From a virus (lineage: Duplodnaviria > Heunggongvirae > Uroviricota > Caudoviricetes), in IMG/VR virus record IMGVR_UViG_3300029074_000008, positions 1 through 5,098 of that record: DNA of 5,098 nucleotides. One strand, 5' to 3'. The notes beneath the pieces were generated by a model, which saw only the letters and a program-made list of their open reading frames with translations, was not told where the DNA came from and made no database searches. The position numbers and the translations under genes were made by a program. Positions 1 through 5,049 of this stretch are shown piece after piece (position 1 is the first letter of the stretch; the number at the start of each line of letters is the position of its first letter).

Positions 1-153
1 CGTCACGGCTATGAATTACTGATTCACCCGCACGACCCTGCGACTATCAACTATGATCGCTCGCGCTACGCATTGTTACCTGAAACAGAGAAGGCAAAGA
101 TCGAAAGTTACATTGAATTTGTCATCAACCAGAACGAAAAAAGCAAACAATAA
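1..153 (+). CDS. 3' end of an upstream CDS (C-terminal 50 codons; 5' end lies outside the window); product unknown
   Basis: Frame 1 is the only open + frame from position 1 and ends at TAA 151-153; frames 2 and 3 hit stops within the first 25 nt. It is followed 20 nt later by a canonical intrinsic terminator. Translation ...RHGYELLIHPHDPATINYDRSRYALLPETEKAKIESYIEFVINQNEKSKQ*; I do not recognise the family. Confidence 0.6.
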   Translation, partial: RHGYELLIHPHDPATINYDRSRYALLPETEKAKIESYIEFVINQNEKSKQ

Positions 154-173
154 AATCATATTTTTCAGTAAGT

Positions 174-200
174 AAGCCGCCTCATGGCGGCTTTTTTATT
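174..200 (+). terminator. Rho-independent terminator for the upstream gene
   Basis: Perfect 8-bp stem AAGCCGCC (174-181) / GGCGGCTT (186-193) with 4-nt loop TCAT, running into a T-tract TTTTTT (192-197) then ATT. Seen directly in sequence. Confidence 0.85.
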
Positions 201-209
201 GCCTATGCG

Positions 210-226
210 ATTACCTTATGGGTAAT
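210..226. promoter_or_regulatory. Operator-like palindrome, copy 1 (ATTACC-N5-GGTAAT), just upstream of the -35
   Basis: ATTACC (210-215), spacer TTATG, GGTAAT (221-226): perfect 6-bp inverted arms. The same half-sites recur at 272-288. It could alternatively act as a weak AT-rich hairpin before the T-run 226-232. Confidence 0.5.
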
Positions 227-244
227 TTTTTTAACTCATATCTA

Positions 245-273
245 TTGACATCAAACCAGATACGCATAATTAT
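245..273 (+). promoter_or_regulatory. Sigma70-type promoter (pL-like) driving the downstream + strand operon
   Basis: Perfect -35 consensus TTGACA at 245-250; 17-bp spacer; -10 candidate AATTAT at 268-273 (4/6 match, A2 and T6 present). An alternative -10, CATAAT at 265-270, has only a 14-bp spacer. It lies immediately after a terminator and before the first SD/ATG of the gene string. Confidence 0.55.
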
Positions 274-288
274 TACCTCAACGGTAAC
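272..288. promoter_or_regulatory. Operator-like palindrome, copy 2 (ATTACC-N5-GGTAAC), overlapping the -10/+1 region
   Basis: ATTACC (272-277), spacer TCAAC, GGTAAC (283-288). Same half-sites as copy 1; centres about 62 bp apart, flanking the -35. Confidence 0.5.
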
Positions 289-306
289 AGACCGAGGTAA
301 CAAGTT

Positions 307-456
307 ATGCAGTGGAAAATCATCAACGGTTGGTACTGCGTTACTGCATGCGGATTCATGAGCTGGAAGTTCCGCACCTTACAGGAAGGCATTAAGTGGG
401 CTTTCGTCAGCAAAGAAGCTCGCGATGTAGCCAACGATAACGAGATATGGGAGTAG
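307..456 (+). CDS. Small ORF (49 aa), first ORF after the promoter; hypothetical protein
   Basis: ATG 307 preceded by GAGGT (294-298) at 8-9 nt spacing; stop TAG 454-456. Translation MQWKIINGWYCVTACGFMSWKFRTLQEGIKWAFVSKEARDVANDNEIWE (Trp-rich, 2 Cys). Not in the ORF track (below the length cutoff). The track's antisense ORF 273..464 overlaps it; promoter and SD context favour the + ORF. Confidence 0.4.
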   Translation: MQWKIINGWYCVTACGFMSWKFRTLQEGIKWAFVSKEARDVANDNEIWE

Positions 457-464
457 GTTAGCAA

Positions 465-1499
465 ATGAGTGAATTATCAATCATCGAAATCACACCAGAC
501 ATGGCACCAAGAATTTACGTTGAAAAAGGGCTGGAAAAGTTTCTCGAGCAGATCCGTGAAGGTGTTAATGAAGTGCCTGACATTAGCACAGACAAAGGCA
601 GAAAGCGCATTGCATCTCTGGCTGCGAAGGTTTCAAGAAGTAAAACAGCGGTAGAAAAACCAGGACGTGATTATCTGAAACGCCTGAAAGAACAGCCGAA
701 AGTAGTTGAAGCAGAGTTACGACGCTTCGTAACCGAATGCGATCGGCTTCGTGATGAAGTACGCCGCCCACTCACCGAGTGGGAAAATGCTGAGAAATTA
801 CGCACTGAAGCACTGCAACAACGCCTGACAAATTTGCGAGCACTAGCTGACGTGATCGATCTCTCCGGAAACTACTTGCCATCATCTGATATTCAGGAAC
901 GAATTCAAGAGGCTAAATCAGTAGCACTTGATGAAAGTTGGCAGGAGTACGCAGCAGAAGCTGGAGTAGCCAAGGATTCAACCATCCAGAAACTGGAAGA
1001 ATCACTCGCAGTAGCTCAAAAACGCGAGCGTGAAGCCGCTGAGCTGGAGCGACTTCGCAAAGAAGCGGAGGAAAAAGCGCGCATTGAGCGAGAAGAGAAT
1101 ATCCGCCGGGAAGCTGCTGAACAGGCCAGGCTCGAAGCTGAACAAAAAGCGAAAGCTGAAATTGAGGCTGCGGCACGCCTGGCGGCGGAAGAAAAAGCAC
1201 GTGCAGAAGTAGCAGAACGTCAGCGAATTGAAGCAGAGCAGCGTGCACGACGCGAAAAAGAAGAAGCCGTTGCCGAGGAACGCCGACGCCAAGAGGCGGC
1301 AGAAAAAGCCCGCCTTGACGAACAGAAGCGTATCGCCGACGAAGAAGCGCGCCGAGCTGCAGATAAAGAGCATCGCCGTACCGTTAACCGCAGAGTAATC
1401 GCAGATCTGATAGCCCAAGGCATTCACGAAGAATTCGCGCAGAAAGCAATGTTGGCTATCGCTGGCGGCAAAGTGCAGGACGCGTATATCAAATATTGA
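465..1499 (+). CDS. Phage hypothetical protein (344 aa) with globular N- and C-terminal regions flanking a long ER/K-rich charged alpha-helical/coiled-coil segment
   Basis: Long ORF from the track; ATG 465 with AGGT 455-458 upstream. Residues about 185-300 are almost entirely E/A/R/K/Q (e.g. AEEKARIEREENIRREAAEQARLEAEQKAKAEIEAAARLAAEEKARAE...). Family not recognised with certainty. Confidence 0.85.
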   Translation: MSELSIIEITPDMAPRIYVEKGLEKFLEQIREGVNEVPDISTDKGRKRIASLAAKVSRSKTAVEKPGRDYLKRLKEQPKVVEAELRRFVTECDRLRDEVRRPLTEWENAEKLRTEALQQRLTNLRALADVIDLSGNYLPSSDIQERIQEAKSVALDESWQEYAAEAGVAKDSTIQKLEESLAVAQKREREAAELERLRKEAEEKARIEREENIRREAAEQARLEAEQKAKAEIEAAARLAAEEKARAEVAERQRIEAEQRARREKEEAVAEERRRQEAAEKARLDEQKRIADEEARRAADKEHRRTVNRRVIADLIAQGIHEEFAQKAMLAIAGGKVQDAYIKY

Positions 1500-1506
1500 G
1501 GTGGGT

Positions 1507-1806
1507 ATGAACGTTAATCAGCAGAAAAATCTTCAAAAAATCATGCTGGCATTCGACAAGGACTACCGTCTGTCAGAACAGCTATATGACCGACAAGTTG
1601 AACTGATTGAGAGTATCCGGCTTCATCAACTGGCATCAACTTTCGACGTTGTAACAGTTAAAGGCGTTCGCCAGGAAGTACTGGAGGCCGCTAAAGACAG
1701 CCCTGAGTTCGAAGAACTAATGGATGCCTACCGGCGCGAGGCAATGGCAATTATCGCCCGCTGGGATCTGGCTGATCAGCTTGATGGGCAGAGGGACGCG
1801 GCATGA
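1507..1806 (+). CDS. Small acidic hypothetical protein (99 aa), translationally coupled to the exonuclease gene
   Basis: ATG 1507 preceded by GAGGTGGG (1498-1505), which overlaps the upstream stop TGA 1497-1499; the track's GTG 1501 start is less likely. The stop TGA 1804-1806 overlaps the next start ATG 1803 (ATGA). By my hand count about 19 D/E versus 13 K/R. Confidence 0.8.
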   Translation: MNVNQQKNLQKIMLAFDKDYRLSEQLYDRQVELIESIRLHQLASTFDVVTVKGVRQEVLEAAKDSPEFEELMDAYRREAMAIIARWDLADQLDGQRDAA

Positions 1807-2624
1807 AACCGGGAATTTATTTCGACATCAGCAACGAAGACTACCACGCCGGTGACGGCGTGAGTAAGTCGCAACTGGACATGGTTGCCAAGAATCCGGC
1901 GCTTCTTAAATGGGTTCAGGCAGCACCAGAAGACGAAGAGAAAAAGTCTGCACTGGATATGGGAACCGCATTGCACTGTCTGCTTCTGGAGCCTGGAGAG
2001 TTCGACAAACGCTTCATTGTTTCACAGAAATTCGATCGTCGGACGAAACAAGGTAAAGCTGACGAAGAGGAATTTCTTCGTGATGTGGCGGATATGGGGA
2101 TTACGGTACTTGATGCCGAGCAGTGGCGGAAACTGGAGCTGATGCGTGATAGCGCAATGGCTCACCCGGCGGCACGCTGGATGCTGGAAGCACCTGGTTA
2201 CTGCGAAGCATCAATGTACTGGAACGATGAAGAGACGGGGGAGTTGTGCCGAATTCGTCCAGACAAATGGCTGAACGAGCACAACGTGATCGTCGACGTG
2301 AAAAAGGTTGCAGATATGGACCGTTTTGCACGCCACATCGAGGAATTCCGCTACCACGTGCAGGACGCAATGTACCGCGAAGGCGCAATGAGGGTTACTG
2401 GTCAGCCGCATGGTTTTTTCTTTCTTGCCGTGAGCGAAAGCATTGATTGTGGTCGGTATCCGGTACGCGTGTTCGAGCTGGATGCGCAGGATGTCGATGC
2501 CGGGCACGCTCTGTTCCGCCGGGATCTGAATACCTATCACGAATGCCGCATCAATGATGAATGGGGCGGTGTGGAAATCATTAAACGCCCTGAGTGGGCA
2601 CGCAAACAGGATATGTACATATGA
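1803..2624 (+). CDS. RecE-type (exonuclease VIII C-terminal-like) PD-(D/E)XK exonuclease, stand-alone nuclease domain (273 aa)
   Basis: ORF with SD GAGGGA (1791-1796) before ATG 1803. N-terminus MKPGIYFDISNEDYHAGDGVSKSQL resembles the start of the RecE-like PDDEXK nuclease domain as I remember it. PD...(D/E)XK-like motif in IRPDKWLNEHNVIVDVKKV (about 2255-2310). It sits immediately upstream of an annealing-protein gene. Confidence 0.75.
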   Translation: MKPGIYFDISNEDYHAGDGVSKSQLDMVAKNPALLKWVQAAPEDEEKKSALDMGTALHCLLLEPGEFDKRFIVSQKFDRRTKQGKADEEEFLRDVADMGITVLDAEQWRKLELMRDSAMAHPAARWMLEAPGYCEASMYWNDEETGELCRIRPDKWLNEHNVIVDVKKVADMDRFARHIEEFRYHVQDAMYREGAMRVTGQPHGFFFLAVSESIDCGRYPVRVFELDAQDVDAGHALFRRDLNTYHECRINDEWGGVEIIKRPEWARKQDMYI

Positions 2625-3562
2625 GCAACGACATCGCAAACATCAACGCACCAGTAGACACAGCAATCGCTGGAACTGCTGCAACTATTTTCAGCCCAGA
2701 CGGCTTGAACCAACTGATGAAATTCGCCGAGGTAATGGCGCAAAGCCGCGTAACGGTACCGGCGCACCTCGCCGGGAAACCAGCTGATTGCATGGCCGTG
2801 GCAATGCAGGCTGCGCAGTGGGGAATGAACCCGTTTGCCGTGGCTCAGAAAACCCATGTTGTGAACGGCACGCTAGGTTATGAAGCCCAATTAGTAAACG
2901 CAGTTATCTCAACGATGTCGCCAACAAAAGATCGCATCAACTACGAGTGGTTTGGGCCGTGGGAACGCGTGATCGGTAAGTTTGTTGAGAAAACATCCAA
3001 AAACGGCAATCCATATATCGCACCAGGCTGGACTCTAAAAGACGAAGAAGGCTGCGGTGTTCGCGTATGGGCAACCATGAAGGGCGAGGATCAACCTCGA
3101 GTGCTTGAGTTAATGCTGTCTCAAGCACAGGTAAGAAACTCCACACTTTGGGCCAGTGATCCGAAACAACAACTCGCATACCTTGCGACAAAACGCTGGT
3201 CTCGCCTGCACTGTCCTGACGTAATCATGGGCGTCTACACCCCAGACGAATTACAGGAAACGGCACCGCGCGTTGAGCGAGACATTACTCCGCAAACGAC
3301 AACTGCTGCGGGAATGAACAGTCTGATCAACGCTAAAACAGTGAAAAAGCCTGATGAGCAAACGCGTAAAGCGGATAGCCGTGATCCAGAAGAAATGCTG
3401 ATGGCCTTTACCAGCGCAGCGATGAATTACAGCACTGTCTCCGAACTGGATAAGGCTTACAAATACATTGCACAAAAACTTTCAGATGATGACGAACTGC
3501 TGGCAAAAGCCACCGACGTTTACAGCGTTCGTCGGGAAGAATTAAACGAAACATCTATGTAA
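2621..3562 (+). CDS. RecT/Red-beta-family single-strand annealing protein (313 aa)
   Basis: ATG 2621 overlaps the exonuclease stop (ATGA at 2621-2624); AGGA 2608-2611 upstream. Motif AMQAAQWGMNPFAVAQ (about 2816-2836) parallels lambda Bet ANQYGLNPWTKEIYAF (recalled from memory). Classic exonuclease-then-annealase gene order. The track's GTG 2594 start lacks an SD. Confidence 0.75.
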   Translation: MSNDIANINAPVDTAIAGTAATIFSPDGLNQLMKFAEVMAQSRVTVPAHLAGKPADCMAVAMQAAQWGMNPFAVAQKTHVVNGTLGYEAQLVNAVISTMSPTKDRINYEWFGPWERVIGKFVEKTSKNGNPYIAPGWTLKDEEGCGVRVWATMKGEDQPRVLELMLSQAQVRNSTLWASDPKQQLAYLATKRWSRLHCPDVIMGVYTPDELQETAPRVERDITPQTTTAAGMNSLINAKTVKKPDEQTRKADSRDPEEMLMAFTSAAMNYSTVSELDKAYKYIAQKLSDDDELLAKATDVYSVRREELNETSM

Positions 3563-3570
3563 CCACCACC

Positions 3571-3589
3571 GCGGCGCCACGCGCGCCGC
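3571..3589 (+). other. GC-rich perfect hairpin in the RecT/AlpA intergenic region (no U-tract)
   Basis: GCGGCGC (3571-3577), loop CACGC, GCGCCGC (3583-3589): 7 consecutive G:C pairs. Followed by ACTGCAACC, not a T-run, so not a canonical intrinsic terminator. Confidence 0.5.
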
Positions 3590-3611
3590 ACTGCAACCAA
3601 GAGAGGTATTT

Positions 3612-3860
3612 ATGAAAGGTGCATTAGGTAAGAAGGAACTCCTGGCGGTGGTGCCACTGTCATGGAGCACTATCGACCGTATGGAGCGCGCAGGTGAATT
3701 TCCTAAACGCTGGTATATCACTGACAAACGCTGCGCATGGAACCGTGACGAAGTTGAGCGTTGGCTTGATGAACGTCAGGCAGCAAGCCCGGCAGAGTTC
3801 CAGGGTAAAAAGCCTCCTGTTCAGCAACGTGTATATCGTCCTGTGAGCAACGCTGCATGA
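3612..3860 (+). CDS. AlpA/Xis-family winged-helix DNA-binding protein (82 aa)
   Basis: SD GAGAGG (3601-3606) 5 nt before ATG 3612. Translation ...ELLAVVPLSWSTIDRMERAGEFPKRWYITDKRCAWNRDEVERWL fits the AlpA/excisionase pattern (S-x-ST-I-x-R ... G-x-FP-K ... W-x-x-x-E-V-x-x-W) as I recall it. Confidence 0.75.
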   Translation: MKGALGKKELLAVVPLSWSTIDRMERAGEFPKRWYITDKRCAWNRDEVERWLDERQAASPAEFQGKKPPVQQRVYRPVSNAA

Positions 3861-4269: not shown

Positions 4270-4912
4270 GAAATACACACTAATCTATGCAGATCCACCC
4301 TGGGTATACCGGGACAAAGCCGCAGATGGTAATCGCGGTGCCAGTTTTAAATATCCGGTTATGAGTGTGATGGATATCTGCCGCCTTCCTGTGTGGGATT
4401 TGGCCGATGAAAACTGTCTGTTGGCCATGTGGTGGGTGCCAACACAACCACTCGAAGCGCTAAAAGTTGTTGAAGCCTGGGGATTCCGTCTGATGACCAT
4501 GAAGGGCTTCACGTGGATAAAATGTGGTAGTCGACAACCAGATAAACTGGTTATGGGTATGGGGCACATGACTCGCGCCAATAGTGAAGATTGCCTGTTT
4601 GCGGTAAAGGGAAAGCTACCTACGCGCATTAATGCAGGGATCGTTCAGTCATTTACCGCACCGCGGCTTGAGCATTCAAGAAAACCAGATATCGTTCGTG
4701 AAAAACTTGTGCAATTGTTAGGCGATGTTTCTCGCATTGAACTGTTCGCCCGCCAGACGTCTCATGGCTTCGATGTTTGGGGTAATCAGTGCGAAGACCC
4801 GGCAGTGCAACTACACCCTGGATACGCGTTGGATATTGGCGGATTAACAAATGCATTCAGCAATGCTCCGGTGTCACCAATAGACAACCAGGGGCGGGAG
4901 CGTGCAGCATGA
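4262..4912 (+). CDS. MT-A70-family N6-adenine DNA methyltransferase (216 aa), apparently orphan (no cognate nuclease in window)
   Basis: Motif IYADPPW (DPPW, catalytic motif IV; GAT at 4292-4294) near the N-terminus, and EHSRKPD near the C-terminal third. The ATG 4262 start is preferred over the track's GTG 4250. The stop TGA 4910-4912 overlaps the next ATG 4909. Confidence 0.85.
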
Positions 4913-5049
4913 ACCTATATCAACGCATCAATGGCGCTGACTGGTGCAATATCTTCGTCGTCGGCGATCTGCATGGGTGCTACACGCTGCTGATGAACGA
5001 ACTCGACAAAGTTTCATTCGACCCACTCAATTATTTACGACAAACATAA
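4909..5049 (+). pseudogene. Truncated lambda-type Ser/Thr protein phosphatase (metallophosphoesterase): only the N-terminal 46 codons
   Basis: [39 protein letters not shown] closely parallels the lambda PPase N-terminus (...[25 protein letters not shown]..., recalled) and includes the GDxHG metal-binding motif. Similarity stops after FDP (about 5025) and the frame ends at TAA 5047-5049. No continuation with the expected second motif (roughly ISVGDL-DRG) exists in any + frame of the remaining about 70 nt. Confidence 0.7.

What the first reader, a model, noticed from the sequence alone, without database searches (positions are those of the whole stretch)
1507..1806. Small acidic protein translationally coupled to the exonuclease: candidate host-nuclease inhibitor in the Gam/Abc position
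Established knowledge: lambdoid recombination modules usually carry a small inhibitor of host RecBCD (lambda Gam, P22 Abc1/Abc2) next to the annealase and exonuclease genes. Seen here: a 99-aa protein with net negative charge ends in an ATGA overlap with the exonuclease start. It shows no sequence resemblance to lambda Gam that I can see. Inference: it may be an unrelated functional analogue, or a different kind of accessory factor.
Basis: inference. Interest (0 to 1): 0.45.

Follow-up and report, generated by a model that had tools for sequence, protein, structure and literature searches.

The report
Hidden Gam-type nuclease inhibitor gene
The small acidic gene in front of the phage exonuclease is a very distant relative of lambda Gam, the classic inhibitor of the host RecBCD nuclease. 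It sits beside a homologue of the phi80 "Gam antidote" Agt, so a gene annotated everywhere as hypothetical gets a probable but untested job.

Summary
Bases 1507-1806 encode a 99-aa protein (net charge -6, pI 4.7) with a Shine-Dalgarno site. Its stop overlaps the start of a RecE-type exonuclease (ATGA), which overlaps RecT the same way.

It is a remote homologue:
- Its family profile's best hit among all PDB sequences is lambda Gam.
- Pfam's Gam model gives the best E-value of any Pfam family across 46 members.
- Profile-profile comparison gives P=1e-5, and none of 500 column shuffles come close.

The upstream 344-aa coiled-coil gene is 58% identical to phi80 Agt/Mog, annotated as the antidote of phi80 GamL, a RecBCD/SbcCD inhibitor. 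The end of agt and the 7-nt spacer are shared with phi80. Only the Gam-type gene after them differs.

Most likely this is a third sequence type of Gam, protecting linear phage DNA for the RecE/RecT pair. Inhibition itself is untested, and the N-terminal "plug" helix differs from lambda's. Databases, including the HHpred-annotated epsilon15 record, call the family hypothetical.

The parts
174..193 (+). Intrinsic-terminator-like hairpin plus T-run that ends the upstream repressor gene (context)
   Evidence: Scan. phiV10 has a terminator annotated at the same place after its repressor gene.
245..273 (+). Sigma-70 promoter-like site (TTGACA, 17 nt, AATTAT), the candidate early-left promoter of the operon
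   Evidence: It is the only promoter-like site on either strand in 1-3700, and no + strand terminator follows it before 3700. epsilon15 has repressor-binding sites annotated in the equivalent intergenic region. Function is inferred.
307..456 (+). 49-aa ORF of unknown function (phrog_898), first gene of the operon
   Evidence: Conserved in phiV10 (p39) and epsilon15 (gp37). No similarity to a lambda-type Kil in the equivalent position of locus L009.
465..1499 (+). 344-aa coiled-coil protein, a homologue of phi80 Agt/Mog, which is annotated as anti-toxin for Gam and modifier of Gam
   Evidence: BLASTP to phi80 Agt: 58% identity over the full length, E 7e-95 (phi80 annotation). 39-44% identical to the Agt-like genes next to GamL in a Klebsiella phage and next to a small99 homologue in lambdoid contig L009. 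phrog_1376, no Pfam family. Absent from phiV10, epsilon15, L010 and L020.
1498..1505 (+). Shine-Dalgarno GAGGTGGG, overlapping the agt stop codon (TGA 1497-1499); part of the conserved 7-nt agt-gam spacer
   Evidence: Sequence. The same TGAGG..., 7-nt spacer and ATG occur in all 9 Agt-plus-homologue loci, in phi80 and in Klebsiella phage ST101-KPC2phi6.1.
1507..1806 (+). The finding: a 99-aa acidic all-helical protein, a divergent Gam-superfamily member (phrog_856; phiV10 p38; epsilon15 gp36) and probable host RecBCD (possibly also SbcCD) inhibitor
   Evidence: see the full report.
1803..1806 (+). ATGA overlap of stop and start (translational coupling to the exonuclease)
   Evidence: Conserved in the related loci.
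1803..2624 (+). 273-aa RecE-type exonuclease (equivalent to the C-terminal nuclease domain of exodeoxyribonuclease VIII; DUF3799)
   Evidence: Pfam PF12684 E 9e-23; NCBIfam PRK09709 positions 606-873, E 2e-91, below the full-length cut-off; phrog_412.
2621..3562 (+). RecT single-strand annealing protein; its start overlaps the exonuclease stop (ATGA)
   Evidence: Pfam PF03837 E 2e-44; phrog_561; sequence.

Best explanation
Bases 1507-1806 encode a divergent member of the lambda Gam superfamily, a third sequence type alongside lambda Gam and phi80 GamL.

It is transcribed early from the repressor-controlled leftward promoter, in one translationally coupled chain: orf49, Agt homologue, Gam-like, RecE-type exonuclease, RecT.

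By analogy with lambda Gam, it most likely forms an acidic helical dimer that occupies the DNA-end-binding site of host RecBCD, and perhaps SbcCD as reported for lambda Gam and phi80 GamL. Linear phage DNA and recombination substrates would then be left to the phage's own exonuclease and annealase.

By analogy with phi80, the upstream Agt homologue tempers the toxicity or extent of that inhibition.

Shown here: the gene, its coupling, its homology and fold match to Gam, the Agt homology, and the conserved slot. Inferred: dimerisation, binding to RecBCD, inhibition, and the Agt effect.
For: 1. Sequence to profile. An HMM of the family searched against 177,635 PDB sequences has lambda Gam (5mbv_A, 2uuz_A) as its top hit. 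E is 0.09, covering residues 29-87 against 31-90, with either a 13- or a 46-sequence profile.

2. Pfam. PF06064 (Gam) is matched by 3 of 46 family members. Its best E-value, 0.0021, is the lowest of any Pfam family in that scan.

3. Profile to profile. hhalign of the family (46 sequences) against Gam (24 sequences) gives probability 82%, P 1.1e-5 and score 33.8, collinear over columns 35-88 and 36-90. In 500 column shuffles the mean was 11.7, sd 2.3, maximum 25.8, and none reached 33.8. Reversed Gam scored 16.6.

4. Reciprocal ranking among 2,015 six-frame ORFs from all fetched loci. After true Gam, the Gam HMM ranks a family member (E 1.2e-5), then four GamL ORFs, then the other family ORFs, almost filling the top 20. 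The family HMM's best outside hit is lambda Gam (E 0.005).

6. Size, charge and motif. The protein is 99 aa against 98 for GamS, pI 4.71 against 4.99, and both start with MN. The near-invariant family motif E67-F68-x-E70 aligns with Gam E111-F-Q-E114. E111 and E114 make ion pairs with RecB K288 and R297 (PMC9836394 Table 1; alignment).

7. Position. In the true lambdoid contig L009 the order is cI, N, Kil, Agt-like, this gene, exonuclease, RecT. That is the slot of gam in lambda's kil-gam-bet-exo.

8. Partner. The upstream gene is 58% identical (E 7e-95) to phi80 Agt, annotated 'anti-toxin for Gam'. It sits directly before phi80 gamL, annotated 'toxic without Mog' and 'host RecBCD/SbcCD enzymes inhibitor'. 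The last 40 nt of agt are almost identical in phi80 and this window. The 7-nt spacer and ATGAAC start are shared, and only the Gam-type gene differs. Lambda Gam links the two types, matching GamL at P 2.7e-7 through the N-terminal half.

9. No other known inhibitor. tblastn finds no lambda Gam, phi80 GamL or Abc2-type gene elsewhere in the closest complete phage genome.
Against: No member of this family has been tested.

Sequence similarity to Gam is confined to the C-terminal half. The N-terminal helix, which in lambda Gam fills the RecB ssDNA channel, is not recognisably conserved. Gam's acidic contacts D48 and E51 align with N8 and K11 in a low-confidence global alignment. Only about 4 of Gam's 12 listed acidic RecBCD contacts have acidic counterparts.

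The window protein itself has no Pfam hit, and the family sits below PF06064's threshold.

Direct similarity to phi80 GamL is not significant (P 0.02; BLASTP finds nothing).

Foldseek found nothing in the PDB with the first, poor model. Its best viral hit with the good model is an unnamed entry at E 0.03.

Agt-like proteins also occur without any Gam-type neighbour, for example before Erf in Pseudomonas phage D3. The Agt link is therefore suggestive, not specific.

The closest complete phage carries 9 Chi sites in one orientation. Phages with RecBCD inhibitors are reported mostly to lack Chi (PMC12315714).
Confidence: 0.7

Rival explanations
1. It has the Gam fold but a different target. The replaced N-terminal helix redirects the protein to another DNA-end-processing or defence enzyme, for example SbcCD alone or another helicase-nuclease. 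Alternatively it modulates RecBCD rather than blocking it.
For: The N-terminal half is not similar to Gam, and Gam's channel-contact acids are not kept. phi80 GamL is annotated as inhibiting both RecBCD and SbcCD and needs a modifier. The closest complete phage is Chi-rich: 9 sites against 1.4 expected.
Against: The conserved half includes the EFxE motif, whose glutamates contact the RecB arm in the lambda Gam complex. The slot is the gam slot. No evidence points to any specific other target.
Confidence: 0.15
2. It is an accessory subunit or regulator of the phage's own RecE-type exonuclease or RecT, not a host-nuclease inhibitor.
For: In all 14 loci examined the gene lies directly upstream of a DUF3799 exonuclease and RecT, usually with a 4-nt overlap, and never with lambda-type Exo/Bet.
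Against: The exhaustive search found no fusion to a nuclease among its 32 representatives. In Salmonella prophages a 68-aa gene separates it from the exonuclease. Homology and fold point to Gam. Lambda gam is just as tightly linked to bet and exo.
Confidence: 0.08
3. The resemblance to Gam is a chance match between short helical acidic proteins, and the function is unrelated.
For: Individual statistics are weak: E 0.09 against the PDB, hhalign probability 82% and 18-22% identity. Helical proteins often give spurious matches.
Against: Five semi-independent tests all pick Gam as the single best match out of thousands to hundreds of thousands of candidates. In addition, the length is the same, the slot is the same, and an Agt homologue is adjacent.
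Confidence: 0.05

Closest known systems
Lambda Gam (GamS, residues 41-138; Pfam PF06064; PDB 2UUZ and 5MBV)
   Different: It falls below Pfam's threshold. The N-terminal helix is unrelated in sequence and lacks Gam's D48 and E51. It is associated with RecE/RecT rather than Exo/Bet. It is often preceded by an Agt homologue, which lambda lacks. There is no long isoform.
phi80 (Lula) GamL together with Agt/Mog
   Same: The two-gene arrangement is the same: a roughly 320-340-aa Agt, a 7-nt spacer, then a 93-99-aa acidic MN... protein, then the recombinase genes. The Agt proteins are 58% identical, and the 3' end of agt is nearly identical in DNA. Both Gam types occur with and without Agt.
   Different: There is no significant direct sequence similarity to GamL. 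GamL shares lambda Gam's N-terminal half, whereas this family shares the C-terminal half. phi80 pairs GamL with a RecT-like protein plus lambda-type Exo.
P22 Abc2, Mu Gam and T7 gp5.9 (other anti-RecBCD proteins)
   Same: They are small phage proteins encoded near recombination genes that act on RecBCD or DNA ends (PMC12315714, PMC9836394).
   Different: There is no similarity. An Abc2-type query finds nothing in the closest complete phage. Their folds and mechanisms differ: Abc2 binds RecC, Mu Gam binds DNA ends, and gp5.9 is a coiled-coil mimic (PMC9836394, PMC12315714).

Membership tests
Lambda Gam family, strict sense (Pfam PF06064) | Scores above the Pfam gathering threshold for PF06064 | tested here: not met
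   The window protein has no Pfam hit at E <= 0.1. Only 3 of 46 family members reach E <= 10, the best at 0.0021.
Gam superfamily (fold-level homology to lambda GamS) | Statistically supported profile-profile similarity to the Gam family | tested here: met
   hhalign P 1.1e-5, score 33.8 against a maximum of 25.8 in 500 shuffles. Reciprocal best outside hits. Top PDB sequence hit.
Gam superfamily (fold-level homology to lambda GamS) | Same three-dimensional fold as GamS | tested here: met
Gam superfamily (fold-level homology to lambda GamS) | Homodimer | not testable with these tools
   No multimer prediction or experiment was available.
Gam-type RecBCD inhibitors (function) | Acidic surface residues that mimic DNA phosphates and contact RecB/RecC | tested here: inconclusive
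   Of the 12 Gam acidic contacts in PMC9836394 Table 1, E111 aligns with E67, E114 with E70, D107/D108 with D64 and E70 with E32. The contacts on the N-terminal helix, D48 and E51, align with N8 and K11. The N-terminal alignment has low confidence.
Gam-type RecBCD inhibitors (function) | Binds RecBCD and blocks its nuclease and helicase activities | not testable with these tools
   This needs genetics or biochemistry. No published test of this family was found.
Gam-type RecBCD inhibitors (function) | Encoded in the early-left operon next to the phage recombinase genes | tested here: met
   Window order. Lambdoid contig L009: Kil, Agt-like, this gene, exonuclease, RecT, compared with lambda kil-gam-bet-exo.
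phi80 GamL type | Sequence similarity to phi80 GamL | tested here: not met
   BLASTP finds no alignment. hhalign P 0.022, probability 2%. tblastn with this protein does not find phi80.
phi80 GamL type | Directly preceded by an Agt/Mog gene | tested here: met
   58% identity, E 7e-95, with the same 7-nt junction. As with GamL, Agt is optional.

The most novel reading that the evidence does not exclude
This is a third, unrecognised sequence type of Gam. The dimer/duplex-mimic half is kept, but the N-terminal helix that plugs RecB has been exchanged, and the protein works with Agt.

Such a variant could convert RecBCD into a nuclease-poor, recombination-proficient enzyme rather than silencing it. 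That would fit the one-orientation Chi enrichment of these phages. It could also escape host systems that sense lambda-type Gam, such as retron Ec48.

It would also supply the missing anti-RecBCD function of RecE/RecT modules in epsilon15-like (Uetakevirus) phages and in some lambdoid phages.
Probability: 0.2. Interest if true: 0.65.

Novelty: new variant of a known kind. Interest (0 to 1): 0.45.

Why it matters
The gene lies in a segment that matches about one in ten complete E. coli genomes (548 of 5,426). It occurs in epsilon15/phiV10-type phages of Salmonella, Klebsiella, Enterobacter and Cronobacter, and is annotated as hypothetical everywhere.

Recognising it as a Gam relative fills the empty anti-RecBCD slot of these RecE/RecT modules. 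It extends the Gam and GamL picture to three interchangeable cassettes behind one Agt gene. It also gives a natural Gam variant with a different N-terminal helix for studying how Gam proteins engage RecBCD and SbcCD, and how Gam-sensing defences recognise them.

In practice, a complete native module of Agt, Gam-like protein, exonuclease and RecT could be tried for recombineering in enterobacteria.

Tried and rejected
- Direct family scans of the window protein (Pfam, NCBIfam, PADLOC) gave nothing. PHROGs gave only phrog_856, function unknown.
- The first AlphaFold model, from 25 close homologues, was poor (pLDDT 71, pTM 0.34), and Foldseek against the PDB found nothing. A 46-sequence alignment fixed the model.
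- Foldseek against viral predicted structures gave only an unnamed entry at E 0.03.
- Rosetta-stone idea: I asked whether the small protein is a detached N-terminal piece of long RecE proteins. The exhaustive HMM search of 1.84 billion representatives found only about 100-aa proteins and fragments, and no nuclease fusions. Rejected.
- Direct similarity to phi80 GamL: none.
- I asked whether orf49 is a Kil equivalent. It has no similarity to the Kil of L009.
- I asked whether Agt is always paired with a Gam type. It is not: Agt-like genes precede Erf in phage D3, cIII/kil/Erf in HK544, and an unrelated 65-aa protein in Klebsiella phage RCIP0098.
- Literature: Rotman et al. 2012 (PMC3510586), the source for GamL and Agt, is not held. 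What I say about it rests on the GenBank annotations, on PMC12315714 and on my memory of the abstract. The supplementary tables of PMC12315714 are not held.
- Searches for the family's accessions or for any mention of an epsilon15 or phiV10 Gam found nothing. One search on 'Mog' was swamped by neurology papers.
- A tblastn hit of lambda Gam inside the phiv142-3 homologue (E 0.2) is out of register with the profile alignment, so I ignored it.

Full report
**What the window is**

The 5.1-kb window is the early-left operon of an epsilon15/phiV10-type temperate phage (genus Uetakevirus).
- It is 96-99% identical to Escherichia phages phiv142-3, phiV10, EC.W1-9 and relatives.
- The 1400-1900 segment matches 548 of 5,426 complete E. 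coli genomes.

On the + strand a terminator-like hairpin (174-193) closes the upstream repressor gene. One promoter-like site follows at 245-273. No other promoter-like site lies on either strand in 1-3700, and no + strand terminator-like site follows it before 3700. The genes then run in this order:
- orf49, 307-456
- a 344-aa coiled-coil protein, 465-1499
- the 99-aa protein of the finding, 1507-1806
- a RecE-type PD-(D/E)XK exonuclease, 1803-2624
- RecT, 2621-3562
- AlpA, PerC and an MT-A70 methylase

**Observation check**

The ORF, its length, its charge (net -6, pI 4.71) and the ATGA overlap with the exonuclease are all as described.
- A Shine-Dalgarno sequence, GAGGTGGG, overlaps the stop of the upstream gene.
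- The exonuclease and RecT are joined by a second ATGA overlap.

The gene is real.
- Intact 99-100-aa homologues at 35-98% identity occur across Enterobacteriaceae.
- Synonymous changes dominate against phiV10, 11 to 2.
- The 4-nt overlap with the next gene is conserved.

The acidity is moderate, no more than that of the neighbouring genes, but it matches lambda GamS and phi80 GamL.

**What it is**

Standard annotation gives nothing. There is no hit in Pfam, NCBIfam or PADLOC, and PHROG 856 has unknown function. An exhaustive HMM search of 1.84 billion representatives finds a narrow family of about 100-aa proteins and no fusions.

A profile of diverse members then pointed to one protein in several different tests.
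- Against all PDB sequences the top hit is lambda Gam. E is 0.09, over residues 29-87 against 31-90.
- Across 46 members, Pfam's Gam model gives the lowest E-value of any Pfam family, 0.0021.
- hhalign against a Gam alignment gives P 1.1e-5 and score 33.8. Five hundred column-shuffled controls had mean 11.7 and maximum 25.8.
- Among 2,015 six-frame ORFs from all loci, the Gam HMM ranks this family and GamL directly after true Gam. The family HMM's best outside hit is lambda Gam.

The aligned half contains a glycine (G53/G56), an EFxE motif and an arginine (R77/R81). Each is invariant or nearly invariant in both families. The two glutamates of the motif correspond to Gam E111 and E114, which pair with RecB K288 and R297 in the cryo-EM complex (PMC9836394 Table 1).

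**The neighbour**

The 344-aa coiled-coil gene is 58% identical (E 7e-95) to phi80 Agt/Mog. In the phi80 records:
- Agt is annotated 'anti-toxin for Gam' and 'modifier of Gam'.
- The adjacent 93-aa gamL is annotated 'toxic without Mog' and 'host RecBCD/SbcCD enzymes inhibitor'.

PMC12315714 lists GamL as one of four anti-RecBCD types and notes that its predicted fold resembles Gam. My recollection of Rotman et al. 2012, which I could not read here, agrees with this.

The junction is informative.
- The last 40 nt of agt are almost identical in phi80 and this window.
- Both are followed by TGAGG, a 7-nt spacer and ATGAAC.
- After that the downstream gene switches type.
- The same 7-nt junction is present in all nine Agt-plus-homologue loci and in a Klebsiella phage with Agt plus GamL.
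- Both Gam types also occur without Agt: phiV10, epsilon15, L010 and L020 for this family, and TL-2011c and HK639 for GamL.

In the metagenomic lambdoid contig L009 the order is cI, N, Kil, Agt-like, this gene, exonuclease, RecT. That matches lambda's kil-gam-bet-exo.

Lambda Gam bridges the two other types. It matches GamL through the N-terminal half (P 2.7e-7) and this family through the C-terminal half. The two do not match each other.

**Mechanism**

The best-supported reading is a Gam-type inhibitor. It would be an acidic helical dimer that occupies the DNA-end site of RecBCD, and possibly SbcCD. It is made early and in fixed proportion with the phage exonuclease and annealase, and Agt moderates its effect. 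Homology, fold, slot and partner are shown here. Dimerisation, binding and inhibition are inferred.

The main caveat is the N-terminal helix. In lambda Gam this helix plugs the RecB ssDNA channel (PMC5218532). Here it is Gln/Asn/Lys-rich, and Gam's D48 and E51 have no acidic counterparts. The target, or the extent of inhibition, could therefore differ.

A second oddity is Chi. The closest complete phage has nine Chi sites, all in one orientation, against 1.4 expected. Phages with a Rec module and a RecBCD inhibitor are reported mostly to lack Chi (PMC12315714).

**Rivals**

- A Gam fold aimed at another enzyme, or a modulator rather than a blocker of RecBCD (0.15).
- An accessory factor of the RecE-type exonuclease or RecT (0.08). 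For it: strict linkage to those genes. Against it: no fusions were found, a gene is inserted between them in Salmonella, and the protein is homologous to Gam.
- Chance resemblance (0.05). This is unlikely, because the independent tests converge on the same protein.

**Novelty**

I found no record or paper that annotates this family. epsilon15 gp36 stays 'hypothetical protein' in a RefSeq record whose neighbouring genes carry HHpred-based notes. The literature searches were empty.

It is not a new kind of system. It is a new, sequence-divergent variant of a known inhibitor family, sitting in a known two-gene arrangement. Interest is moderate: a useful annotation and a testable variant of a well-studied DNA mimic, not a surprise in principle.

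Noticed in passing
L022 (phage phiv142-3, MN187550) 8104-38223; the window itself has none: The closest complete phage has nine Chi sites (GCTGGTGG), all on one strand, against 1.4 expected from shuffles (0 of 100 shuffles reach 9). Eight lie in the late-gene region, co-oriented with transcription. This is unexpected for a phage that carries a putative RecBCD inhibitor. It may reflect codon usage or a real use of RecBCD-Chi.
   Followed up: partly
window 1803-3562 compared with L002 (phiV10) 3758-5518: In phiV10 the exonuclease and RecT are annotated as one 1,761-nt RecE-RecT fusion protein. In this window and in phiv142-3 they are two genes joined by an ATGA overlap.
   Followed up: no
L004-L007 (Salmonella prophages) 5300-5506; L008 (Cronobacter) 5300-5509: A 68-69-aa gene sits between the Gam-like gene and the exonuclease, with 4-nt overlaps on both sides. 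In the Salmonella loci it has weak winged-helix (MarR_2/HTH_24) Pfam hits. In the Cronobacter locus it has no Pfam hit. Direct coupling to the exonuclease is therefore not universal.
   Followed up: no
L015 (Pseudomonas phage D3) 2498-3562; L013 (HK544) 2429-3397; L014 (Klebsiella phage RCIP0098) 2501-3677: Agt-like proteins are widespread in early-left operons of phages of Pseudomonas, Vibrio, Klebsiella and E. coli (163 phage records). They are not always next to a Gam type. In D3 one directly precedes Erf. In RCIP0098 it is followed, at the same 7-nt spacing, by an unrelated Cys-containing 65-aa protein. The family's function may be broader than 'Gam antidote'.
   Followed up: partly
L003 (lambda) around the gam internal start; L016 (HK639) 3001; L018 (TL-2011c) 3001: The 16 nt before the internal Met41 start of lambda gam (tttcaggagttcagcc ATGAACGC) are identical to the sequence before gamL in HK639 and close to that in TL-2011c. 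This suggests the GamS start is the conserved, ancestral start of Gam-type genes.
   Followed up: no
window 4909-5049: A short ORF ([24 protein letters not shown]...) has what looks, from memory only (no scan was run), like the N-terminal motif of a lambda-type Ser/Thr phosphatase. It stops after 46 codons. Similarity to related phages ends near 4914-5024, so this may be a truncated gene at a mosaic or prophage boundary.
   Followed up: no
window 465-1499: The 344-aa Agt homologue is the segment missing from most close phage relatives: phiV10 and others cover only about 76% of the window. It is therefore a presence/absence cassette within otherwise 98%-identical operons.
   Followed up: yes
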